In this document: piece by piece, positions 6,321 through 53,563 of the stretch
How positions within the stretch are numbered: the first letter of the stretch is position 1
Layout: each line of letters opens with the position of its first letter
Origin: a virus
Taxonomy: Duplodnaviria > Caudoviricetes
Strand: one strand, 5' to 3'
Virus record (IMG/VR): IMGVR_UViG_3300020016_000006
Location: 3,433 to 67,432 of that record
DNA length: 64,000 nt
Notes under the pieces: model-generated
What the model was told of the DNA's origin: nothing
The model's input: only the letters and a program-made list of their open reading frames with translations
Databases searched by the model: none
Position numbers and translations under genes: made by a program

Positions 6321-6586
6321 AGTGACGATTTAGTAGACTCCTCGCGAGTGCCTAGTAGGGGTTTTATGCGGAAGGGCAATAGGCGGGGGAGGCCGGGATA
6401 TGGGGTGGGTGGCCGCAACCAGTCACACATGAAGCACAGCGCAAATCAACATTCACGTATAGCGTATTGGCTGTTACAAACAACATTGGTGGGCTCTGAA
6501 ACTGGTGAATCAATGAAATTACCATGATTCAAAGTTGGTGTGTTGGGTGTATGACTACATGACCCCATGCATTGGAGAACATTGCA

Positions 6587-7321
6587 ATGGCATTTGATCT
6601 TGAAACTGCGACTGATGAACAGAAGCTGCTTGTTCTCCGTGGGTATTGTGCACGTCCAACACGCAATCCAGCAGCCAAAGGGCCATACTGTACACAGAAT
6701 GCTGGACATAAGACAGATCACGCTGGTGAAGGAGCATGTTGGCTGCATGGTGGGAACAATCGCATTAAACATGGACGATTCAGTTCAGTTAAGCATACCA
6801 GGCTGGCTGATCTCATTTCAGAGATGGATGAAACAGAAGATCCACTCAACACGTTGCCTGAAGTGGCAGCCACCAGAGCACTCCTGGTTGATCACATTAA
6901 CAGATATGATGAATTTACAGCTGCGCTGATCGCATGGCATGAATCATACATGGCTGGTGTTCCGACACCCAAACTGTTCGCTTCACTTGAATCCATAATG
7001 GAGATGTTGGAGACCAATTGTACTGAAGCTGAACTGAAACGCAACAAAGATTATCAGACATGCCTCAAGGCTGTGATGTCCTATAAGAGCTCAAATCCAA
7101 AGCCAATTCAAATTCTTGATATCGCAGACTCAATGAGATTGCTTAGTGAAGTCACCAGGATGGTGGAGCGCATTGGAAAGTCCATGTCCATTAACGCAGT
7201 GGGCAGGCGTGATTTCCAGCGCATCATGCTGGAGATTGGAAACATCATTGACCAATGCGTCAGCAGCGATCGTGAAAAGATCAAGATCAGAGACAAAATT
7301 GCGAATCTCAGATTGGCCTGA
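6587..7321 (+). CDS. terS: terminase small subunit (HGG-motif family)
   Basis: C-x-GHKTDHAGEGACWLHGG-NRIKHGRFS motif typical of HGG-type small terminases; helical C-terminus; GGAG RBS before ATG 6587. Confidence 0.7.
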   Translation: MAFDLETATDEQKLLVLRGYCARPTRNPAAKGPYCTQNAGHKTDHAGEGACWLHGGNNRIKHGRFSSVKHTRLADLISEMDETEDPLNTLPEVAATRALLVDHINRYDEFTAALIAWHESYMAGVPTPKLFASLESIMEMLETNCTEAELKRNKDYQTCLKAVMSYKSSNPKPIQILDIADSMRLLSEVTRMVERIGKSMSINAVGRRDFQRIMLEIGNIIDQCVSSDREKIKIRDKIANLRLA

Positions 7322-7331
7322 TGCAGTGAGG

Positions 7332-7351
7332 TGCAATGGTGCACTGATGCA
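7332..7351. repeat. 20-bp TGCA-rich element TGCAATGGTGCACTGATGCA, copy 1
   Basis: Identical copy at 58325-58344. Confidence 0.8.
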
Positions 7352-7426
7352 CTGATCATCCAATCCTAATGGTTCAATTATGCTGAATGGTCAACTGCTA
7401 TCCAGCATAATTGAGGCAATGGGGTG

Positions 7427-7476
7427 AAAAGAAAAACAAAAGGCCATGGGCACCAGATCATCGGTGCCCATGGCCT
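7427..7476 (-). terminator. intrinsic terminator of the minus-strand wHTH gene
   Basis: 14-bp stem AGGCCATGGGCACC/GGTGCCCATGGCCT with A-tract on the + side, just after the TAA. Confidence 0.85.
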
Positions 7477-7483
7477 CAAGTGT

Positions 7484-7918
7484 TTACTTCACCTCAGCAG
7501 GAGTGTCCTTCGCCTGATCCCGCATCGCGATCACCGCGGTCCTGACCGCCTTGGCCTTGTCGCTGGCCTTGGCATCGTTCTCGGCAATCACGAACCGATA
7601 CTCACTGCCGATACGAATGGCGTCCAGGATGCCCGCCTCTCCCGCGCTGATCCCGAAGTACCTCACCGTCACATCACGGAGGCCGGTGGCAGCCACAAGC
7701 TCGCTGACCGTTGATCCTGCGCCCTGACGAATGGCGTCCCAGACCTTGCCTTCACGGAGAGGATTGATCCTGCCCTCTGCGAGCGCCTTTGGGTCTGGGC
7801 CGGTCTTGCCGTCCTTGCGTGCTGGGGTGGCCTTGCTGTAGGGAGCGACGGTGACCGTGGGAGTGGGGGTGGTCTCGGTGACCACAGGCTGGGTGCTGTT
7901 CTTCTTGTTGCGCTTCAT
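7484..7918 (-). CDS. winged-HTH-like protein, TG/CA-rich copy (paralog of 8535-9011)
   Basis: ATG at 7918 after AGAACGGGAG RBS; VWDAIRQGAGSTVSELVAATGLRDVTVRYF..LDAIRIGSEYRFV wHTH-like pattern. Confidence 0.85.
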   Translation of the reverse strand: MKRNKKNSTQPVVTETTPTPTVTVAPYSKATPARKDGKTGPDPKALAEGRINPLREGKVWDAIRQGAGSTVSELVAATGLRDVTVRYFGISAGEAGILDAIRIGSEYRFVIAENDAKASDKAKAVRTAVIAMRDQAKDTPAEVK

Positions 7919-7994
7919 GGTGTTCTCCCGTTCTTGTTGAGTTATCAAAGAGCACTTGGCTCGGGCCAGGGGATCGTCCCCCGACCTAGGTACT

Positions 7995-8040
7995 AATCTA
8001 CGTTGCCTCAGAAAAAAGCGAAACCCGAATAGTACCCGAA
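7995..8040 (-). promoter_or_regulatory. promoter TTTCGC-N17-TAGATT with two TCGGGT boxes upstream
   Basis: Inverted repeat of 8334-8363; 17-bp spacer; points into the 7918 gene. Confidence 0.7.
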
Positions 8041-8058
8041 GTGTTTTCGCCTTCACTC

Positions 8059-8255
8059 AAAACTCGAGCATGGAACAAAATTGGTGATTGGTGGTGAATG
8101 CCACTGTGCGATGCCAAACACCACTGTGCGACCAATGCCTAATGGTTGAATGGTCCATGGTTGGTGGGTGGGTGGTGGGTGTGTGGGTGGCCCTGGTGCC
8201 TGTGGACGTTGGGTTTTGAAGTTGTAGGATCAATCTTGTCGCATGCTCGAGTTTT
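8059..8255. repeat. 14-bp inverted repeats (AAAACTCGAGCATG) enclosing a TG-rich core with CCACTGTGCGA x2 and a G-tract
   Basis: 8059-8072 vs 8242-8255; direct repeats at 8101 and 8121. Confidence 0.8.
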
Positions 8256-8323
8256 GCGCGACAATTTCCACTCGACAATTTTGATCGCGACCGAGAACAA
8301 CTCGCGTTAGTCTATCGGACAAC

Positions 8324-8379
8324 TCGGGTTTAATTCGGGTACTATTCGGGTTTCGTTTTTTCCGAAGGATTCGTACTAT
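8324..8379 (+). promoter_or_regulatory. promoter TTTCGT-N17-TACTAT with three TCGGGT boxes at 11-bp period
   Basis: -35 8351-8356, -10 8374-8379; boxes at 8324, 8335, 8346. Confidence 0.75.
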
Positions 8380-8534
8380 AGTCTCGTCGCTCCGCGAAAT
8401 TCGGAAGCCTCCCCCGCGAGGGAAGTAGCCGAGCGACCCGATAGCCGAGCGGGCGCGGTCCCGAGCTAGGCGAACGAAAAACCGAACCCTCCGAGACGGG
8501 CCGCTCCCGTCTCGGTTAACTCCGAGGAGGCTAT

Positions 8535-9011
8535 ACGAAAAACCGAAAGAACCGCGCGACCCGCGCCCCCGAGACGCCCGAGGCTCCCGAGGCCGTAGCT
8601 CCCGAGACGCCCGAGGTTCCGACCGTAACCGTCGCTCCGTACTCGAAAGCGACCCCCGCCCGTAAGGACGGAAAAACCGGACCCGACCCGAAGGCGCTCC
8701 GCGAGGGTCGGATTAACCCCCTCCGCGAGGGTAAGGTTTTCGCGGCGATCCGGGCGGGCGAAGGCTCGACCGTCGCGGAGTTAGTCGCCGCTACCGGACT
8801 CCGAGACGTAACCGTTCGCTATTTCGGAATTTCCGGCGGCGAGGCGGGGATTCTCGACGCTATCCGAATCGGTAGCGAGTACCGGTTCGTCGTTTCCGAA
8901 ACGGACGCGCTAGCGAGCGCGAAGGGTAAGGCCGTAAGGACGGCCGTAATCGCCCTCCGAGACGCGGCGACCGCGACCCCCGCTCCGAGTACCCCCGAGG
9001 CGGCGAAGTAG
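8535..9011 (+). CDS. winged-HTH-like protein, TG/CA-free copy, ACG start (not in ORF track)
   Basis: GAGGAGG-CTAT-ACG; 158 codons to TAG; 100/114 aa identical to the 7484-7918 product; no M, W, C, Q or H. Confidence 0.9.
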   Translation, partial: TKNRKNRATRAPETPEAPEAVAPETPEVPTVTVAPYSKATPARKDGKTGPDPKALREGRINPLREGKVFAAIRAGEGSTVAELVAATGLRDVTVRYFGISGGEAGILDAIRIGSEYRFVVSETDALASAKGKAVRTAVIALRDAATATPAPSTPEAAK

Positions 9012-9018
9012 CTCCTAC

Positions 9019-9045
9019 GGGCCGCTAGGGCGATCCTAGCGGCCC
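9019..9045 (+). other. intercistronic hairpin GGGCCGCTAGG-GCGAT-CCTAGCGGCCC
   Basis: Perfect 11-bp stem between the two island ORFs. Confidence 0.7.
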
Positions 9046-9073
9046 TCCCGCTCCCCTTAGCTTAGGAGGCTAT

Positions 9074-9229
9074 ACGCGCTACCCCTATCTCGGACTTCCG
9101 GCCGCTCCGAGCGTCCGCGAGTCTCTAGAGCGGGCGGCGGAGATTATCGCCCGCCGGATCGTTTCGGAAATTCGATTCGTCCCCGTCGCCCGCGACCTCC
9201 CGCCCTACTCGGGCGAGGACGGTTCGTAA
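9074..9229 (+). CDS. 51-aa hypothetical protein, ACG start (not in ORF track)
   Basis: Same GGAGGCTATACG context as 8535; RYPYLGLPAAPSVRESLERAAEIIARRIVSEIRFVPVARDLPPYSGEDGS then TAA. Confidence 0.75.
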   Translation, partial: TRYPYLGLPAAPSVRESLERAAEIIARRIVSEIRFVPVARDLPPYSGEDGS

Positions 9230-9239
9230 AAACCGAAGG

Positions 9240-9268
9240 GGGGTAGCCGAAACGGCTACCCCTTTTTT
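9240..9268 (+). terminator. intrinsic terminator GGGGTAGCC-GAAA-CGGCTACCCC-T6
   Basis: GC stem with U-tract closing the island. Confidence 0.9.
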
Positions 9269-9354
9269 ACGGGCGGGGAGGGTGCCCCCTCCCACATGCA
9301 GGATGAAATCTGAAACATTTCAGCCATGAACTTTTCATTGATCACCTATGAGTC

Positions 9355-9383
9355 TTTTGTTTTCCCCGAGTGTTCTATAGCTT
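9355..9383 (+). promoter_or_regulatory. candidate promoter TTTTGT-N17-TAGCTT
   Basis: 17-bp spacer, -10 identical to other phage promoters; upstream of ATG 9393. Confidence 0.5.
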
Positions 9384-9392
9384 TATTTTATT

Positions 9393-9551
9393 ATGATCCG
9401 ATACAAAATTTGGTTTGAGCCGAGTGATGACAGTATAATGATGGGCACCACCCCAAGCCAACGAGCCACGGTGCTTCAAGAGTTTATCGCATATACATGG
9501 GAAGAAGCCTTACGCACCTTTGCTCGTTGGAGATCCATACGATTAATCTGA
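9393..9551 (+). CDS. hypothetical protein (52 aa, possibly near-leaderless)
   Basis: MIRYKIWFEPSDD...; ATG about 10 nt after the -10. Confidence 0.5.
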   Translation: MIRYKIWFEPSDDSIMMGTTPSQRATVLQEFIAYTWEEALRTFARWRSIRLI

Positions 9552-9851
9552 GCAGGTTGCGATTAGACGGGCGTGAGATTGCGGTGTGCCACCCCAACAC
9601 GGCCCATGAGATCACGAACAACCCAGAAGTGTTCGATGAACTTATGAGGACACTGCAATGCCACGAGGATGTAACTGTCCGCTTGAAGCCATCCTAGCGC
9701 GTTTGCTCCTGAGGATGACGGATAGGATGCGAGGATGGCAGATCGCTCGGCGCACTGGCCGGCGTAATGATACATTAACAATCATTGACAGGTGTGACAT
9801 TTGCAACCAGCAGTACACTTTAACCTTCACCCCCGACAGGAGACATCCAGA

Positions 9852-48336: not shown

Positions 48337-49302
48337 GTGCTGATCGTCGGTGCTGGGATGGCCGGCCTGCTGGCGGGGCATATACTCCGCCGGCACCGGC
48401 CACTCATCGTGGAAGCGCAGGAGTCCTTGCCAAATAACCATGCGGCCCTCCTGCGCTTCAAGACGCCGAAAGTCTCAGAGGCAACGGGCATCCCCTTCCT
48501 CAAGGTCTATGTCCGCAAAGCAGTTATGACAAGCAAGGGCCTTTCCGACCGGCCGAGTCTTGCGGACAATAATGAGTATTCAATCAAGGTAACTGGCGAA
48601 GCACTCGACCGATCAGTACTTGATCTGAGTCCTGGCGAGCGATATATTGCTCCTGAGGATTTCATAAGTCAGATGGAAAGTAATCTGAACATCCAGTTTG
48701 GGTACAAGTGGAATCCAACTCGGGATGAGTTTGATATTAATCAGCCCGAGGATGGCACGATCATTAGCACTGTTCCGATGCCGACACTAATGAAGATGGT
48801 TGAATGGCCGGCGATTCCTGAGTTCAAGCATAAGCGAATATGGACCGTTACGGCATATGTTGAAGATCCACCAGCCAGTTTGTACCAGACAATTTATTAT
48901 CCAGACCGGAGGCGTGACTACTATCGAGCCTCTTTGACGGGCAACCGCCTCTCATTAGAATACATTCAGTCAGTAGAGAGGGAAATAGCACAGATGGATG
49001 TGATGAAGGTTCTGGATGATTTCGGAATCTATCATCCAAAATGGAATATGAAGCCGCTTATTCATTATCATGAAGAGTATATCAAAGCACAGTTTTACGG
49101 TAAGTTGCTTCCAATTGATGAGATGGAGCGTAAGGCATTCATCATCGGGATGACGGATAAGTATGATATCTGGAGCCTCGGGCGATTCGCTACATGGCGA
49201 CAGATTCTCCTTGATGATGTAGTAGATGATGTGAAATTCATTGACCGCGTCGTTACCCAGAAGGATCAGTATCACCGCCGAATGCACCACCACAATAGCT
49301 AA
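48337..49302 (+). CDS. FAD-dependent oxidoreductase/mutase-like protein (UDP-galactopyranose mutase-like)
   Basis: IVGAGMAG dinucleotide-binding motif; C-terminal GRFATWRQ..DDVV like Glf GR..Y motif. Confidence 0.7.
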   Translation: MLIVGAGMAGLLAGHILRRHRPLIVEAQESLPNNHAALLRFKTPKVSEATGIPFLKVYVRKAVMTSKGLSDRPSLADNNEYSIKVTGEALDRSVLDLSPGERYIAPEDFISQMESNLNIQFGYKWNPTRDEFDINQPEDGTIISTVPMPTLMKMVEWPAIPEFKHKRIWTVTAYVEDPPASLYQTIYYPDRRRDYYRASLTGNRLSLEYIQSVEREIAQMDVMKVLDDFGIYHPKWNMKPLIHYHEEYIKAQFYGKLLPIDEMERKAFIIGMTDKYDIWSLGRFATWRQILLDDVVDDVKFIDRVVTQKDQYHRRMHHHNS

Positions 49303-49443: not shown

Positions 49444-49686
49444 ATGAATATCCAAGAGGCATTGGAAAAGAAACGGCAAGCCAAAAAGTGGTTTCGCAGT
49501 CTTACTCGCGAGGCATTGCTAGAGTTTCTTGCCGATACAGCATATCGTCTTAATGAGCTTGAAGGGGCCGCGATACTTGAAAATGAAAATGATGAAGAGT
49601 TTAGCAATCATATTCTCGACGCAGTGGAGAATGTAAATGCTGCGTATAAGGCAGAAACACGTTCTGAACTCCCGGCATTAACATGA
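49444..49686 (+). CDS. hypothetical protein
   Basis: In-operon ORF. Confidence 0.6.
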   Translation: MNIQEALEKKRQAKKWFRSLTREALLEFLADTAYRLNELEGAAILENENDEEFSNHILDAVENVNAAYKAETRSELPALT

Positions 49687-50663
49687 CAGTCAAGTTGCTA
49701 ACCTATACACCTGATGCGCTAGATATCATGCTGATGACGAAGCAGACTCGGCTGGATTTTAACCCCGAGATGCTGGAGGAGATTCGGCAATGGCCGATGG
49801 AGCAGAAATTGAAGGAACTGGCGTACATGCGTGGGACTATTCAGAGCAGTTGGGAATTTGTGGATTATACTTTTTTGTTGACGGGCGTATCGCGGGCCTT
49901 TACTCATCAGTTTGTTCGGACGCGACAAGGTTCCTACGCGCAGCAATCGCAGAGAACAGTAGACATGCAGGGATTTGATTATCTGGTCCCGAATGAGCTT
50001 CGGGAGAAGGATCTGGGTGAGGATGATTCTCCGCTTACCAAGACATCCGAATACGGGATTGATTTTCTTGACTTGGATGAGACGGTCAACACATCCCCGG
50101 ACATGTCCAGCGGTAGAAATTGGTATGATTGGGGAATGCTCGCCGCTGAACACGCCTATGCCAAGATGCGCGAAAAGGGAGTCAATCCTCAAGATGCGAG
50201 GGGTGTCCTTCCAACAAATATCGCTACAAATATCGTGGCGAAGTTTTCATTACGTGCCCTCTCAGATATGGCCAAGATCAGGCTTTGCACTCGCACTCAG
50301 GGTGAGTATCAAGACATCTTCCGCGAGATGCGTAAGCGAGTGATTGAAGTTCATCCTTGGGCCGAGCAGTTCATAGAAGTCCACTGCGTGGCGCTCGGGG
50401 TGTGTGCGTTCCCAAATTATATGGAGTGTCCAATTAAGGGTCCGCTCCTGAACCCTGAGACGGGACTTCGATGGGATGAGGCTCAGACCAAACGGACTCT
50501 CACAATACTTCCCAATCCTGAGAATGGTCTCAAGGACAAGATATTCCATACCATGGAGTATCCAGCTCACCCGGCTCCTCGGTGGTGGGTAAAGCAGAAG
50601 TGGGAGGAGCTACGGTATGAGGCTGTGCCGAAGCAACATAAGAACGAAGGGGAAGTACCATGA
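49683..50663 (+). CDS. thyX: ThyX-like flavin-dependent thymidylate synthase homolog with atypical RTR motif
   Basis: VSRAFTHQFVRTRQGSYAQQSQR, PQDARGVLP, R.CTRTQGEYQ. Confidence 0.85.
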   Translation: MTVKLLTYTPDALDIMLMTKQTRLDFNPEMLEEIRQWPMEQKLKELAYMRGTIQSSWEFVDYTFLLTGVSRAFTHQFVRTRQGSYAQQSQRTVDMQGFDYLVPNELREKDLGEDDSPLTKTSEYGIDFLDLDETVNTSPDMSSGRNWYDWGMLAAEHAYAKMREKGVNPQDARGVLPTNIATNIVAKFSLRALSDMAKIRLCTRTQGEYQDIFREMRKRVIEVHPWAEQFIEVHCVALGVCAFPNYMECPIKGPLLNPETGLRWDEAQTKRTLTILPNPENGLKDKIFHTMEYPAHPAPRWWVKQKWEELRYEAVPKQHKNEGEVP

Positions 50664-50881: not shown

Positions 50882-51352
50882 GTGCTTTCGACCCCCGCGA
50901 CCGTTCCGCCCGCGACTATTTGGGCAATCATAGACTTGGACGGTACTCTTTGTGATATTACCCATCGGCTTCACATTCTTTCGGAGCCAAAAAAGAAATG
51001 GGCCGAGTTTCATGCATTACTTGTAGATGATATTCCCAATTTAGCCATTAGTATCATCATGAGAGCAATCCGAGGATATGGAGTTCGCATTGCGCTATGT
51101 ACGGGCCGGCCTGAGGAGTATCGAGATGAGACAATGGATTGGCTAAGAAAACACGCTATTGATTGGGATCGTCTTTTGATGCGCCCTGAGGGGAATTATC
51201 AATCTGATGACCTCGTTAAGCCAGCCCTCGCGGCCGACGCAGGGCTAACAAAGGATAATGTCCTTTTCATAATGGAGGATAGAGACAAAATGGTCCGCAT
51301 GTGGAGACAGCTAGGCTTCGTATGCTTTCAGGTTCAGGAGGGAGCATACTGA
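50882..51352 (+). CDS. HAD-family phosphatase (PNK-phosphatase-like)
   Basis: DLDGTL, TGRP, K.., EDR motifs I-IV. Confidence 0.88.
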   Translation: MLSTPATVPPATIWAIIDLDGTLCDITHRLHILSEPKKKWAEFHALLVDDIPNLAISIIMRAIRGYGVRIALCTGRPEEYRDETMDWLRKHAIDWDRLLMRPEGNYQSDDLVKPALAADAGLTKDNVLFIMEDRDKMVRMWRQLGFVCFQVQEGAY

Positions 51353-52137
51353 TGAAGAAGGATCAAATTTCTGGAATGTACATAAAGGATCAGAAGAAAC
51401 AACATGATTACGCGGTGCGGATTGTTCGCGCCCCCTCGCATCGTACCGCAGTCGTCACCGGCGCAAGCAAGCGAGGAAGTATCGGTCAGGCCATTGTGGA
51501 GATGCTTACGGGAATACCATACCACTCGATTCACTATCCTGCTGAATATCAACTTGACGTCACGAATCCAGATCAGGTTGAACGATACTTTACAAGTCTC
51601 GCCGGAATGGATACGCTTATCTGTTCTCATGGTGTAAATGCGATGTCGTGGTTTGAGAATATGAGCATTATGGATATAACCAGAATTATTGATGTAAATC
51701 TAACAGGATCGGCCATTGTGGCTCATTCCTTCGTGAATCGTACACTTGGACTCCCGTGGCGTAAACAGATCATCTTTATCGGGTCCATGGCGTATAATCA
51801 CGTGCTGAATGCCTCGGCTGCTTATTGCGCGAGTAAAGCAGGATTGGCAATGCTGACACGGTGTCTCGCTTGGGAATTGGCACCGAAGGGATATGATGTC
51901 TTCTGTGTTCACCCATCCAATACGGAGGGTGCGCCAATGACTGAGGATACAATCCAAGGCATCATGTCATATAGAAATGTCCCTCGGGAGGAGGCAGAAG
52001 GATACTGGGGTGCGGTACTGCCGCGCCATCGTTGGCTCCAGCCAAAAGATATTGCGCGAACGATTGAACATCTTCTCAAGGATGAATCGGGGTATCTTTC
52101 AGGGGCCAATCTTGAACTCGCGGGAGGTCAGCGATGA
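51352..52137 (+). CDS. short-chain dehydrogenase/reductase (SDR)
   Basis: TGASKRGSIG, VNLTG, GSM, YCASK. Confidence 0.9.
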   Translation: MKKDQISGMYIKDQKKQHDYAVRIVRAPSHRTAVVTGASKRGSIGQAIVEMLTGIPYHSIHYPAEYQLDVTNPDQVERYFTSLAGMDTLICSHGVNAMSWFENMSIMDITRIIDVNLTGSAIVAHSFVNRTLGLPWRKQIIFIGSMAYNHVLNASAAYCASKAGLAMLTRCLAWELAPKGYDVFCVHPSNTEGAPMTEDTIQGIMSYRNVPREEAEGYWGAVLPRHRWLQPKDIARTIEHLLKDESGYLSGANLELAGGQR

Positions 52138-52670
52138 GGCCTGATATGTCCATTCGGTATGCTGATGCACGCCGTGCGATTGCGGAGCATCTAGCGCACA
52201 CCGTCGTTAGTCGCTTGGCGATGCGGTTTGCTTATTCAGCCGATCTACCTGATGCCCCGCCGGGTATGACCCCAGTCATGAATAATGATGATTTACGGAA
52301 TTATGAAACTGAACTAACGGCCATTGCTGTACAAGACTTAAAATTGCTTGGAGAAGTATTTGGCGATGTGTTCCTTCAGTATAATGGCATTGAACCAACT
52401 GATTCTAATTTAGCACAGTTTAATGTCTTCATGGAAGCTATGTCACTCTACGATGAGCGCAATAAAAGATACAAGGATCAGTGGAAGGAATCTGGTTGGA
52501 TGGGCGCTCTCTATGATATACGCAAAAAGGCGGCAAGGTTGTTTCGTCAATTCTTTGGTGAAGAACCAACCGAGGGCGCCAGTGAGGATGACGCATGGGA
52601 TCTCATCAACTTCGGCGGATTCTTCATCCGTGGACGACGGGAACAAAACAAGTGGGGGAATTGGCTGTGA
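52134..52670 (+). CDS. DUF1599 / nucleotide-modification-associated domain 1-like protein
   Basis: ERNKRY.DQW...I.KK..RL...ED...DLINF. Confidence 0.7.
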   Translation: MRPDMSIRYADARRAIAEHLAHTVVSRLAMRFAYSADLPDAPPGMTPVMNNDDLRNYETELTAIAVQDLKLLGEVFGDVFLQYNGIEPTDSNLAQFNVFMEAMSLYDERNKRYKDQWKESGWMGALYDIRKKAARLFRQFFGEEPTEGASEDDAWDLINFGGFFIRGRREQNKWGNWL

Positions 52671-53563
52671 TTAATGATGATATCTTCCGAACGATGAGCC
52701 TTGGGATTATTCTGCCATCAAATAATCCTGATGACTACTTCACGAAATTCAGCCCGAGCCTTCCATATCTCAGGAGTGGACTAGAGCGATTGGATATCAA
52801 GATTCTTATATGTGCCCAAGAGCCATGGACTGAGGTAAAACTCGCAGAGGCAAAATATATTGCCATGAGTGAAGGTTTAGATTTGCGAGCTATTCTTCAC
52901 TCCGCTGAATCACCTCCGAGAATGTGTTACTTTCGGCAGCAAGCGGCGAATCTCTTTCCCAATGCATCAATCTACATGCTCGCAGATGATAATATGAGCT
53001 TCTATAAGGGACTTGGAACAGAGGAGATTCCACATGGACTCACCAGCGGACGATGTTACGCCGAAGTCCTTGACTATATGTTCCATTATCCCCGGTGCGG
53101 ACTTGTACAATGCCATACGACAGCACCAACAGGATTTGGCCGTAGCATCAGACCTACTAGCAATGGCCTTATCACCACTAACAAAGGCTTATTCATCCGC
53201 AATCTCAATAGAGGCTACCTGTGGCCACAATGGTCCTGGTCGTTCAAGTCCTCTCTTGAAGAGACTATTGCGGGATATAGAGTGCTTGATCAGGGCTACT
53301 TCCCAGCCAGACAGCATCAGAATCCGACAATACACACCATCCACAAAATAGGCGACGACGACGCACTACATAGTCATGATCTGATTTACGCAAATGCCGG
53401 GAGATGGGTGCGAGAGTTTTATCAGTCGCCTGAGTGGGATCACCAAGATGGACTCTTTCCTGAAATGCTAATTGATTCGGCAGTTAAGAATGCACCTATG
53501 GACGAGGTGACATTTTTCTCGGCTAACCCTCGGTTCATCAGGCGGTATGATGATATTAGCTGA
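52667..53563 (+). CDS. putative GT-A fold glycosyltransferase
   Basis: IILPS beta1, RQQAA..IYMLADDNMSF metal/NDP-sugar motif region. Confidence 0.55.
   Translation: MINDDIFRTMSLGIILPSNNPDDYFTKFSPSLPYLRSGLERLDIKILICAQEPWTEVKLAEAKYIAMSEGLDLRAILHSAESPPRMCYFRQQAANLFPNASIYMLADDNMSFYKGLGTEEIPHGLTSGRCYAEVLDYMFHYPRCGLVQCHTTAPTGFGRSIRPTSNGLITTNKGLFIRNLNRGYLWPQWSWSFKSSLEETIAGYRVLDQGYFPARQHQNPTIHTIHKIGDDDALHSHDLIYANAGRWVREFYQSPEWDHQDGLFPEMLIDSAVKNAPMDEVTFFSANPRFIRRYDDIS

What the first reader, a model, noticed from the sequence alone, without database searches (positions are those of the whole stretch)
8321..9283. 963-bp island with zero TG/CA dinucleotides that is a complete transcription unit
Seen: from 8321 to 9283 there is no TG and no CA, so the CpA/TpG step is absent on both strands. 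Flanks are very rich in it (hand counts: 16 in 7321-7380, 17 in 8081-8140, 13 in 6661-6720 of terS). More than 100 would be expected at background rates, so chance is excluded. The borders match a functional unit: promoter (8324-8379), about 150-nt leader, ORF 8535-9011, hairpin, ORF 9074-9229, terminator (9240-9268); TG reappears 15 nt after the terminator. Inference: absence on both strands points to selection on double-stranded DNA, not RNA. Either virion DNA carries a TpG/CpA-directed modification that blocks host RNA polymerase, so the first-expressed unit must be target-free, or a host defence attacks CA/TG steps in the DNA that enters first. I know of no described phage system like this.
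Basis: partly seen in the sequence, partly recalled or inferred. Interest (0 to 1): 0.97.

Follow-up and report, generated by a model that had tools for sequence, protein, structure and literature searches.

The report
Phage gene cassette purged of TG/CA
A soil phage keeps one small gene cassette, from promoter to terminator, completely free of the DNA steps TG and CA, giving up ATG start codons to do so; this is most likely so that the cassette escapes a chemical mark the phage puts on thymines next to G everywhere else in its genome, though the mark itself has not been shown in this phage.

Summary
Observation confirmed. Window 8321-9283 has no TG or CA, where about 142 are expected (chance about 2e-67). 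The next-longest gap in the 67-kb phage genome is 56 bp. It is not an artefact: contigs from two soil studies give identical sequence across both borders. Six related lineages carry an island of 668 to 1091 bp. Four were aligned; these are only 66-70% identical in DNA, yet all are TG/CA-free.

The island holds a conserved promoter-like element, a winged-helix protein gene, a small fast-evolving ORF and an intrinsic terminator. Both ORFs start at ACG, 4 nt after GGAGG. The winged-helix gene is a recoded paralogue (78% aa over the full alignment) of an ordinary TG/CA-rich, ATG-started gene lying divergently beside it behind the same promoter element. Both copies are under purifying selection.

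Best explanation (about 0.5): the cassette dodges the phage's own TG-directed thymine hypermodification. The phage shares its replication and nucleotide module with Pbunavirus, whose virion DNA carries hypermodified T in a TG motif (Yee et al. 2025), and adds a GT-A-fold glycosyltransferase. The mark itself, early expression and the genome ends are untested here.

The scan found similar CA/TG-poor islands before, in Wifcevirus and other phages. No published description was found.

The parts
8321..9283 (.). TG/CA-free island (963 bp, 64.7% GC against about 50% in the genome)
   Evidence: borders identical in contigs of 4 runs from 2 studies
8322..8351 (+). Three direct 8-bp repeats (ACTCGGGT, ATTCGGGT, ATTCGGGT) spaced 11 bp apart, abutting the -35-like hexamer; candidate operator
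   Evidence: The exact motif occurs only here and at the twin's promoter (8023-8030, minus strand). Conserved in L002 and L003.
8351..8379 (+). Putative promoter TTTCGT-17-TACTAT (inferred)
   Evidence: Lies in a 49-nt inverted repeat shared with the twin's upstream region (I1) and is conserved in L002 and L003. Not detected by the sigma-70 consensus scan.
8386..8534 (+). Leader of about 150 nt, variable in length and sequence among relatives
   Evidence: fold z-score -1.8, not significant; no Rfam family
8526..8537 (+). Shine-Dalgarno GGAGG, 4-nt spacer, ACG start of ORF1
   Evidence: The same 13-mer recurs at 9064-9076 (D18). The ACG aligns with the twin's ATG, and the same context is found in W, L001, L002, L003 and L009.
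8535..9011 (+). Island ORF1: 158-aa winged-helix protein with no C, W, M, H or Q; recoded paralogue of the twin
   Evidence: dN/dS 0.16-0.35 among island copies; the fold was modelled on the twin protein
9019..9045 (+). Perfect 11-bp hairpin between the ORFs, with no T-run
   Evidence: I21; a hairpin at the same place in L001-L003
9065..9076 (+). Second GGAGG, 4-nt spacer, ACG start
9074..9229 (+). Island ORF2: 51-aa fast-evolving small protein of unknown function
   Evidence: only an 18-aa N-terminal match to ORF2 of L002; no Pfam or PHROG hit
9240..9268 (+). Intrinsic terminator (10-bp GC-rich stem, 3-nt loop, T6), preceded by an A-run
   Evidence: sequence; the stem was found by the scan on the minus strand; conserved in L002 and L003
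7484..7918 (-). Twin gene: 144-aa winged-helix protein, ATG start, 62 TG/CA in 435 nt (genome-average density)
   Evidence: identity to ORF1 is 85% in the best local alignment and 78% over the full alignment
7992..8040 (-). Twin's copy of the promoter element (TTTCGC-17-TAGATT), with TG and CA in its spacer
8084..8230 (.). Unique TG-rich, G-run spacer between the two inverted arms (37 TG/CA in 147 bp)
48337..49302 (+). PHROG 4828 protein; some GenBank records label homologues 'UDP-galactopyranose mutase'. Shared with Pbunavirus, Wifcevirus, Serratia, Xanthomonas, Rhizobium and Vibrio phages. Candidate part of a DNA-mark pathway.
49683..50663 (+). ThyX homologue with RTR in place of the RHR signature
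50882..51352 (+). HAD phosphatase of the PNKP type
51301..52137 (+). Short-chain dehydrogenase
52667..53563 (+). GT-A-fold glycosyltransferase-like protein with an invariant DDN motif, directly upstream of the epsilon exonuclease and DnaE genes
   Evidence: pLDDT 88, pTM 0.90; TarS, POMGnT1, GalNAc-T2, RmlT; E about 1e-6

Best explanation
The island is a transcription unit kept free of the phage's own DNA mark.

Inferred chain:
(1) Like its Pbunavirus relatives, this phage converts thymines followed by G into a bulky, probably sugar-bearing hypermodified base after replication. Every TG on either strand (TG or CA as read on one strand) is then marked; that is about 30% of all T.
(2) Marks in a promoter or template hinder the host RNA polymerase on the incoming virion DNA.
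(3) One cassette has therefore been purged of every TG/CA, from its operator repeats to its terminator, so that it can be read at once from parental DNA.
(4) The cost is visible: no ATG, GTG or TTG (hence ACG starts behind a strong GGAGG), no TGA, no Cys, Trp, Met, His or Gln, and a rise in GC.
(5) The cassette holds a 'bootstrap' copy of a winged-helix regulator plus a small accessory protein. The unconstrained, ATG-started twin behind the same promoter element supplies the better protein once unmarked or licensed DNA is available.

Shown: the purge, its conservation under selection, the recoded twin, the ACG context, and homology of the replication and nucleotide module to that of phages with a published TG mark.

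Inferred: the mark in this phage, its effect on RNA polymerase, and the timing.
For: - The purge is absolute and selected. Chance is about 2e-67. One third of random substitutions in the island would create TG/CA, yet island copies in W, L001, L002 and L003 differ at 30-34% of sites and stay clean; P is about 1e-53 for 300 changes.
- Islands occur in six lineages from different studies.
- The clean zone matches an expression unit, not a gene. It begins 29-47 nt upstream of the -35-like hexamer, at the operator repeats, and ends 6-15 nt after the terminator in W, L002 and L003. This points to DNA rather than mRNA as the target.
- ORF1 is a mostly synonymous recoding of the neighbouring twin. 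Of 92 twin codons that touch a TG/CA, 65 keep their amino acid. W becomes F, M becomes L, Q becomes A or E, and the ATG start becomes ACG. Both copies have dN/dS of 0.16-0.35.
- Island copies group together (82-86% aa) apart from the twins, so the duplication is old.
- L004, a single-copy relative, is only partly purged: 15 TG but 2 CA on the coding strand. TG on the template strand is therefore the most avoided (binomial p about 0.004, computed by hand).
- Published marks: hypermodified T in a TG motif, about a quarter of T, in Pbunavirus F8 and 14-1 (PMC12191111). TG/TC-directed T hypermodification occurs in M6, ViI and phiW-14, and the M6 5hmdU DNA kinase acts at TG (PMC6449724).
- This phage shares with Pbunavirus LMA2 and Wifcevirus WFC the genes for an SNF2 helicase, Pam3 gp33/34-like proteins, a RecD-like helicase, the PHROG 4828 protein, ThyX, a HAD phosphatase, the epsilon exonuclease and DnaE, in the same order around ThyX. 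It adds a GT-A-fold glycosyltransferase and has an atypical ThyX.
- WFC has a strongly TG/CA-depleted block in its terminal repeats. Wifcevirus phages resist all but one of the tested RM systems without a known protection mechanism (PMC11990801).
- In vitro, bulky 5-substituents on pyrimidines block bacterial RNA polymerases (PMC4838386), and phosphorylating 5hmU in a template switches transcription off (PMC6457204).
Against: - No measurement shows that this phage's DNA is modified.
- The genes that write the Pbunavirus mark are unknown. The shared module may simply travel with the replication genes by descent. An earlier check in this scan priced that gene-to-mark link at about 33/100 and 'the block dodges the phage's own mark' at 27/100.
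- Pbunavirus LMA2, whose genus has the measured TG mark, has no island. Neither does Xanthomonas phage Carpasina, which also carries the SDR. The mark alone therefore does not force an island.
- All other genes and putative promoters of this phage carry normal TG/CA, so they would need a further device to be expressed.
- Residual TG and CA counts in the genes of the WFC island show no strand asymmetry.
- The promoter is inferred only. Expression timing and physical genome ends are unknown.
Confidence: 0.5

Rival explanations
1. Stealth against an agent that acts on double-stranded DNA at TG/CA. One candidate is a modification-dependent host nuclease (type IV or END-like) that senses the hypermodified T. 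Another is a phage or host nuclease that cuts at TG/CA. The cassette would be the first DNA in the cell and would have to survive and be expressed, perhaps producing an inhibitor from ORF2, before the rest of the genome enters.
For: - Both strands are purged equally in the complete islands, as expected for a reader of duplex DNA.
- END nucleases target hypermodified Pbunavirus DNA, and some of those phages need inhibitors to plaque (PMC12191111).
- In WFC the depleted block lies in the terminal repeats.
- ORF2 is small and fast-evolving, as anti-defence genes often are.
- An HTH regulator plus a small variable gene behind one promoter resembles acr-aca operons (own knowledge).
Against: - The borders follow the transcription unit rather than running out to a genome end.
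- Sparing 1 kb does not save the other 66 kb unless DNA entry is staged, and nothing here shows that. The contig is a circular assembly and the ends are unknown.
- It does not explain why the regulator gene is kept twice, or the strand asymmetry in L004.
Confidence: 0.2
2. The constraint acts on RNA. The mRNA must lack UG and CA, for example to survive an endoribonuclease of the host (an abortive-infection toxin) or of the phage (host shut-off). This would be a natural counterpart of ACA-less mRNAs that survive MazF.
For: - L004 avoids CA in the mRNA sense far more than UG, 2 against 15.
Against: - The clean zone includes 65 or more nt upstream of the inferred start site in W, and the whole promoter element in L002, L003 and L004. 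Chance for 65 nt is about 3e-5, computed by hand from the 14.7% density.
- It needs two unrelated dinucleotide specificities that happen to be reverse complements.
- It gives no reason for the link with phages whose DNA is marked at TG.
- The argument depends on a start site that is only inferred.
Confidence: 0.1
3. A foreign high-GC insert, an assembly artefact or a base-calling artefact.
For: GC is 64.7% against about 50%. CpG observed/expected is 1.53 and TpA 1.58, against 0.90 and 0.66 in the rest of the genome.
Against: - ORF1 is a paralogue of the adjacent native gene and shares its promoter element.
- The GC rise follows from the codons that remain allowed; the L009 island is only 57.5% GC.
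- The sequence is identical in independent assemblies, and homologous islands occur in six other lineages.
- A TG-to-CG miscall would turn M into T, W into R and Q into R. Instead M becomes L, W becomes F and Q becomes A or E.
Confidence: 0.02
4. A physical property of the DNA. CA/TG is the most flexible base step, so a stiff CA/TG-free stretch might be needed for packaging, ejection or exclusion of nucleoid proteins.
For: The island lies near the terS-like gene and nested inverted repeats, a plausible packaging region.
Against: - TpA, the other flexible step, is enriched in the island (observed/expected 1.58).
- A physical optimum would not demand zero occurrences at the cost of start codons.
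- The borders track an expression unit.
- In L009 the arrangement is tandem, in a different layout.
Confidence: 0.03

Closest known systems
TG-context hypermodified thymidine of Pbunavirus F8 and 14-1 (Yee et al. 2025 preprint, PMC12191111)
   Same: The target dinucleotide matches exactly what the island avoids. About a quarter of T is replaced there; 30% of T lies in a TG context here. The replication and nucleotide module is homologous: PHROG 4828 protein, ThyX, HAD phosphatase, epsilon exonuclease and DnaE at 30-42% aa identity.
   Different: The mark has not been measured in this phage. The writer genes are unknown even in Pbunavirus. The Pbunavirus tested here (LMA2) has no TG/CA-free island. 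The structural genes are unrelated. This phage adds an SDR and a GT-A-fold enzyme.
Post-replicative thymidine hypermodification at TG/TC in phages M6, ViI and phiW-14 through a 5hmdU DNA kinase (Flodman et al. 2019, PMC6449724)
   Same: It is a precedent for a dinucleotide-context rule (TG) for a bulky major-groove mark on T that covers 30-50% of T.
   Different: No 5hmdU DNA kinase or aGPT-Pplase homologue was recognised among the ORFs scanned. No mark-free island is mentioned in the passages read.
CA/TG-depleted early-gene blocks in the terminal repeats of Wifcevirus and other phages
   Same: Local loss of CA/TG over 1-2 kb of small, promoter-led genes, in a phage with the same ThyX / PHROG 4828 / HAD / SDR module.
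   Different: In WFC the loss is strong but not absolute (4-10 per 200 bp against 28), the genes keep ATG starts, and the block sits in direct terminal repeats. Here the purge is total, forces ACG starts, and duplicates a gene that survives next to it in ordinary form.
Motif-poor first-entering DNA (T5 first-step-transfer region, T7 early region); early-injected region and type I RM in Autographiviridae (PMC12455610, seen only as a title and abstract start)
   Same: The logic is the same: the DNA that must act first lacks the sequences that would expose it.
   Different: Those cases avoid 4-8-bp host restriction sites. Here a 2-bp step is avoided, probably the phage's own modification site. 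Entry order is unknown for this phage.
Vertebrate CpG islands (own knowledge)
   Same: They are stretches at promoters that stay free of the genome-wide base modification and so remain transcribable.
   Different: CpG islands keep the target dinucleotide but escape the enzyme. Here the target dinucleotide itself has been removed by selection, through the whole coding region.

Membership tests
Phages with TG-directed thymidine hypermodification (Pbunavirus type) | Non-canonical thymidine nucleoside in virion DNA | not testable with these tools
   It needs LC-MS or native-DNA sequencing. Only contigs of short-read runs were available.
Phages with TG-directed thymidine hypermodification (Pbunavirus type) | The modification is confined to T followed by G | tested here: inconclusive
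   The evidence is indirect: the only dinucleotide pair purged is TG/CA. There is no direct read-out.
Phages with TG-directed thymidine hypermodification (Pbunavirus type) | Shares the phage-specific nucleotide module next to DnaE (PHROG 4828 protein, ThyX, HAD phosphatase) | tested here: met
   tblastn against LMA2 and WFC gave E values of 1e-7 to 1e-55, with the same gene order. The genes are not proven to write the mark.
CA/TG-poor early-gene islands (the class seen earlier by this scan) | Local near-absence of CA/TG over 1 kb or more, conserved in relatives | tested here: met
CA/TG-poor early-gene islands (the class seen earlier by this scan) | Location in a terminal repeat or at a physical genome end | not testable with these tools
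   The contig is a circular assembly with a 126-bp overlap. Contig data show no read termini.
First-step-transfer / leading-region early modules (T5-like) | Enters the cell first and is expressed before the rest of the genome | not tested
   No RNA run was listed and there are no data on entry.
Winged-helix (ArsR/MarR-like) DNA-binding regulators | Winged helix-turn-helix fold | tested here: met
   The AlphaFold model of the twin has pLDDT 83. The best Foldseek matches are ArsR/SmtB/MarR-type regulators, but all have E of 0.01 or weaker. A weak DUF3489 hit was also found.
Winged-helix (ArsR/MarR-like) DNA-binding regulators | Binds a specific operator | not tested
   Candidate sites are the 8-bp repeats found only at the two twin promoters.
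Sigma-70 promoter | Match to TTGACA-17-TATAAT | tested here: not met
   The consensus scan finds nothing at 8351-8379. The element matches 2 of 6 and 4 of 6 positions. It is called a promoter on conservation and position only.
Intrinsic terminator | GC-rich stem-loop followed by a T-run | tested here: met
   A 10-bp stem, 3-nt loop and T6 at 9240-9268. The tool reported the stem on the opposite strand.
GT-A glycosyltransferases (window 52667-53563) | GT-A fold with an acidic DxD-like motif | tested here: met
   The model has pLDDT 88 and pTM 0.90. Foldseek matches TarS, POMGnT1, GalNAc-T2 and RmlT at E about 1e-6 with TM up to 0.56. A DDN motif is invariant. The substrate is unknown.
Anti-CRISPR / Aca-type operon | A small inhibitor gene plus an HTH autorepressor under a strong early promoter | not tested
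   This is a resemblance only. There is no homology to known families and PADLOC was not run.

The most novel reading that the evidence does not exclude
This phage genome uses a 'CpG-island-like' epigenetic logic. Virion DNA is so heavily hypermodified at TG that host RNA polymerase can read only one purpose-built, target-free cassette. That cassette carries a recoded bootstrap copy of a regulator, translated from ACG starts. Its product, alone or with the small ORF2 protein, then licenses expression of the marked genome, including its own better-encoded twin.
Probability: 0.25. Interest if true: 0.92.

Novelty: new variant of a known kind. Interest (0 to 1): 0.8.

Why it matters
If the reading is right, a phage's anti-restriction DNA mark has a cost, unreadable DNA on arrival, and phages pay it off by writing a mark-free 'boot sector' into the genome. 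That would explain a recurrent, so far unpublished, compositional oddity in several phage groups, including relatives of therapeutic Pseudomonas phages and the restriction-resistant Wifcevirus coliphages. It would give a purely sequence-based way to read a phage's modification motif from its genome, and it would flag the genes a phage needs first.

This case is the cleanest natural experiment so far. The same protein is encoded twice side by side, once freely and once without TG/CA. This shows directly what the constraint costs: no canonical start codons, no TGA stop and five amino acids lost. It also shows that both versions stay under selection. Finally, it gives a rare set of bacterial-type genes with conserved ACG initiation codons.

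Tried and rejected
- Conversion or miscall model (every TG and CA turned into CG): rejected. The GC rise fits, but the twin comparison shows selected recoding (M to L, W to F, Q to A or E), not M to T, W to R or Q to R.
- Phage initiator tRNA reading ACG: no tRNA genes in the window.
- Close relatives in INPHARED: none by DNA; TerL is at most 34% identical.
- Relatives in IMG/VR and GTDB genomes by the wHTH profile: none, so there is no host clue. The family is rare: 15 hits among 1.8 billion representatives.
- RNA evidence: no RNA holder was listed for the stretch, so expression could not be examined.
- Read termini and physical ends: only contigs could be laid.
- Rfam: no family in 7300-9600. 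Leader fold not significant.
- General TG/CA avoidance at other putative promoters: not found. The CTAGCGC-type and TTTxCx-type candidates carry 1-4 TG/CA.
- 'Module implies island': rejected as a rule, because LMA2 and Carpasina have the module and no island.
- Sequence searches of the unknown module proteins against PDB sequences: nothing usable.
- Searching whole metagenome records behind L022-L024 for islands: the records are not held. The fetched parts cover only the replication module and have no island.
- TG/CA enrichment of the island's flanks: 31-37 per 150 bp in relatives but average (24) in this window. Not robust.
Full report
**1. The observation.** A script count shows that no TG or CA begins anywhere in window 8321-9282. 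The window as a whole holds 9425 such steps in 64000 bases (14.7%), so about 142 are expected in 963 bp. A geometric model gives a probability of about 2e-67. The next-longest gap is 52 bp in the window and 56 bp in the whole genome. No other strand-symmetric dinucleotide pair shows anything comparable; the longest other gap is 235 bp, for TA. The island is 64.7% GC against about 50%, with CpG at 16% of steps (observed/expected 1.53).

**2. It is real DNA.** The genome is a single 67,432-bp contig whose ends overlap by 126 bp, which indicates a circular assembly. It is a phage (TerL, tail and replication genes) with no close relative in INPHARED. Logan contigs from four soil-metagenome runs in two studies cover the island and both borders without a single difference, at depths similar to the flanks.

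**3. Anatomy.**
- From the left border come three 8-bp direct repeats (ACTCGGGT, ATTCGGGT, ATTCGGGT) spaced 11 bp apart.
- They are followed by TTTCGT, 17 nt and TACTAT, then a leader of about 150 nt.
- Next is GGAGG, 4 nt, and ACG opening a 158-codon frame (8535-9011).
- A perfect 11-bp hairpin follows, then the identical 13-mer AGGAGGCTATACG opening a 51-codon frame (9074-9229).
- The unit ends in a GC-rich stem with T6 (9240-9268). TG returns 15 nt later.
- ATG, GTG, TTG and TGA all contain TG, so no canonical start codon and no TGA stop can exist inside the island. The proteins cannot contain Cys, Trp, Met, His or Gln, and they do not.
- The sigma-70 consensus scan does not find the promoter. 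A TG/CA-free -35 cannot look like TTGACA, so the promoter is an inference from conservation.

**4. The twin.**
- ORF1 has homologues. The closest in this genome is an ordinary gene at 7484-7918 on the other strand. It encodes 144 aa, starts with ATG, and has 62 TG/CA in 435 nt, the genome average.
- The two proteins are 78% identical over the full alignment and 85% in the best local alignment. The DNA of aligned codons is 68% identical.
- Of the 92 twin codons that touch a TG/CA, 65 keep their amino acid in the island copy. The rest change conservatively (W to F, M to L, Q to A or E), and the ATG start aligns with the ACG.
- A 49-nt inverted repeat (80% match) places the same repeats-plus-hexamers element in front of both genes. 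The twin's copy carries a TG and a CA in its spacer. A second 31-nt inverted repeat lies further out, around a unique TG-rich, G-run spacer at 8084-8230.
- The exact ATTCGGGT motif occurs nowhere else in the window.
- The twin protein models as a winged helix-turn-helix with a long C-terminal helix. The nearest solved folds are ArsR/SmtB/MarR-type regulators, but all matches are weak, with E of 0.01 or worse.

**5. Relatives.**
- Exact-protein look-ups and a profile scan retrieved contigs from other samples.
- L001, L002, L003 and L020 carry TG/CA-free islands of 668 bp or more (cut by the contig end), 1069, 1091 and 693 bp. In L001-L003 the ordinary twin lies divergently beside the island.
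- L009 and L010 carry a 765-bp island in tandem with their twin.
- Every island ORF examined starts at ACG, 4 nt after GGAGG or GAGG: ORF1 in five lineages and ORF2 in three.
- The four aligned islands are only 66-70% identical in DNA. Synonymous divergence is 0.5-0.8. dN/dS is 0.16-0.35 for island copies and twin copies alike, so both are working genes.
- One third of all possible point substitutions in the island would create a TG or CA. The chance that 300 substitutions create none is about 1e-53. The purge is therefore actively maintained.
- Island copies group together (82-86% aa) apart from the twins (75-85%), with 71-78% between the two groups. The duplication thus predates these four lineages.
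- In W, L002 and L003 the clean zone starts 29-47 nt upstream of the -35-like hexamer and ends 6-15 nt after the terminator.
- L004, a more distant relative, has a single copy with a GTG start in a unit that is strongly but not fully purged (17 TG/CA in 690 bp). The remainder is lopsided: 15 TG against 2 CA on the coding strand, so TG on the template strand is almost gone.

**6. What the island is not.**
- It is not foreign DNA. It encodes a paralogue of its neighbour, and its high GC follows from the codons that remain allowed.
- It is not a conversion or miscall of TG and CA into CG.
- It is not a known RNA family.

**7. The lead to a mechanism.**
- The scan's notebook shows that CA/TG-poor early-gene blocks were seen before in Wifcevirus, Myosmarvirus and soil phages, with the cause unknown.
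- Independently, I searched a 321-aa protein of this phage (48337-49302, PHROG 4828, next to ThyX) against the phage collection. It is found in 362 records: mostly Pbunavirus, plus Wifcevirus and phages of Serratia, Xanthomonas, Rhizobium and Vibrio.
- In WFC it sits in the same order as here: this protein, ThyX, a PNK/HAD gene, an SDR, a small protein, the epsilon exonuclease and DnaE.
- A local tblastn shows that the whole replication and nucleotide module is shared with LMA2 and WFC at 28-42% identity. The structural genes are not shared.
- Yee et al. (2025, PMC12191111) report that Pbunavirus F8 and 14-1 virion DNA resists enzymes whose sites contain TG. It contains novel thymidine-derived nucleosides of 362 and 390 Da replacing about a quarter of T, 'hypermodified thymine, in a TG motif', with no genes assigned.
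- Flodman et al. (2019, PMC6449724) found TG/TC contexts for the T hypermodifications of M6, ViI and phiW-14, and a TG preference for the M6 5hmdU DNA kinase.
- In this genome 30% of all T lie before G.
- This phage clade adds a protein (52667-53563) that models confidently as a GT-A glycosyltransferase with an invariant DDN motif. Its ThyX has RTR in place of RHR.
- Wifcevirus phages resist all but one of the tested RM systems without a known protection mechanism (PMC11990801).
- In vitro, bulky 5-substituents on pyrimidines block bacterial RNA polymerases, probably at initiation (PMC4838386). Phosphorylation of 5hmU in a template switches transcription off (PMC6457204).

**8. Best reading.**
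- A TG-directed mark on T hits TG on both strands, which is exactly the TG-plus-CA set the island lacks. The cassette is therefore most simply a mark-free expression unit.
- The fit of its borders to the regulatory repeats and the terminator points to reading of the DNA by RNA polymerase as the process being protected. The near-complete loss of template-strand TG in the half-purged L004 points the same way.
- The twin then makes sense. The purged copy is a handicapped but always-readable starter (ACG start, five amino acids forbidden). The free copy is the better gene once the DNA is readable.
- I put this reading at about 0.5.

**9. Cautions.**
- Nothing shows that this phage's DNA is modified.
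- The shared module may be inherited along with the polymerase, and earlier checks in this scan priced the gene-to-mark link and the 'dodges its own mark' claim at about a third or less.
- My own tests show that the module does not predict an island. WFC has a strong but incomplete depletion in both terminal repeats. Vibrio phage VA-RY-3 has only a 370-bp non-coding dip. Pbunavirus LMA2 and Xanthomonas phage Carpasina have none. The chemistry of the mark, or the way the genome enters, must therefore matter.
- All other genes and candidate promoters here carry normal TG/CA, so a further device is needed for their expression. This is the weakest link, and it is also what makes the winged-helix protein interesting.

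**10. Rivals.** Stealth from a duplex-DNA reader such as a modification-dependent nuclease during staged entry (0.2). An mRNA-level constraint (0.1). DNA mechanics (0.03). An artefact or foreign insert (0.02). The remainder is unknown.

**11. Novelty.** TG-context hypermodification is published. A conserved, absolute, modification-site-free transcription unit with ACG starts and a recoded twin is not described in any paper found or read. The scan has seen the general phenomenon on other phage DNA before. This instance is the cleanest and adds the twin, the ACG starts and the half-purged intermediate.

Noticed in passing
window 6397-7400 (terS-like gene 6572-7321): This is the highest TG/CA density in the genome: 215 per kb against 149 +/- 13, and 153 in the 750-bp gene. 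It lies directly beside the zero-density island.
   Followed up: partly
window 8084-8230: A unique spacer between the two inverted arms, rich in TG and in G-runs (GGTGGGTGGGTGGTGGG...), with CCACTGTGCGA twice. It may form a G-quadruplex or be a packaging or end site. Relatives also have TG-rich tracts at the left border.
   Followed up: partly
L004:9794-10487 (GCA_900492005.1 contig UEXT01000284.1): A single-copy relative of the winged-helix gene with a GTG start, in a half-purged unit: 15 TG but only 2 CA on the coding strand. It looks like an evolutionary intermediate.
   Followed up: partly
L009:3604-5157 and L010: In this lineage the purged copy and the ordinary copy lie in tandem on one strand, not divergently. 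The arrangement is free, but the purge is conserved.
   Followed up: partly
window 52667-53563: An unannotated protein with a confident GT-A glycosyltransferase fold and an invariant DDN motif, just upstream of the epsilon exonuclease and DnaE genes. Homologues were found only in uncultured relatives and, weakly, in Rhizobium jumbo phages.
   Followed up: yes
window 49683-50663; L022:7183-8061; L024:7392-8210: The ThyX homologues read RTR-x7-S where the family signature is RHR-x7-S.
   Followed up: partly
window, 11 sites (e.g. 10835, 18924, 33841, 37170): CTAGCGC occurs 11 times against 4.7 expected (0 of 100 shuffles reach 11). Four sites are followed at 16-18 nt by TAnnnT on the + strand. 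This may be a phage-specific promoter class. Their spacers contain TG/CA.
   Followed up: partly
window 8405-8411 and 8526-8532: The leader contains AGCCUCC, which pairs with the GGAGGCU of the ribosome-binding site in the minimum-energy fold. The fold is not significant against shuffles (z = -1.8).
   Followed up: partly
L017 (Vibrio phage VA-RY-3) 6790-7160 and 5800-6100: A podovirus with the same PHROG 4828 / ThyX / DnaE module has a short, mostly non-coding TG/CA-poor stretch (5 in 300 bp against 41) at the head of its early operon.
   Followed up: partly
L024 and L009 (both SRR30224756); L025 and L010 (both SRR30224794): Contigs with the replication module and contigs with the island-plus-twin co-occur in the same two samples. 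They are probably parts of one phage genome.
   Followed up: no
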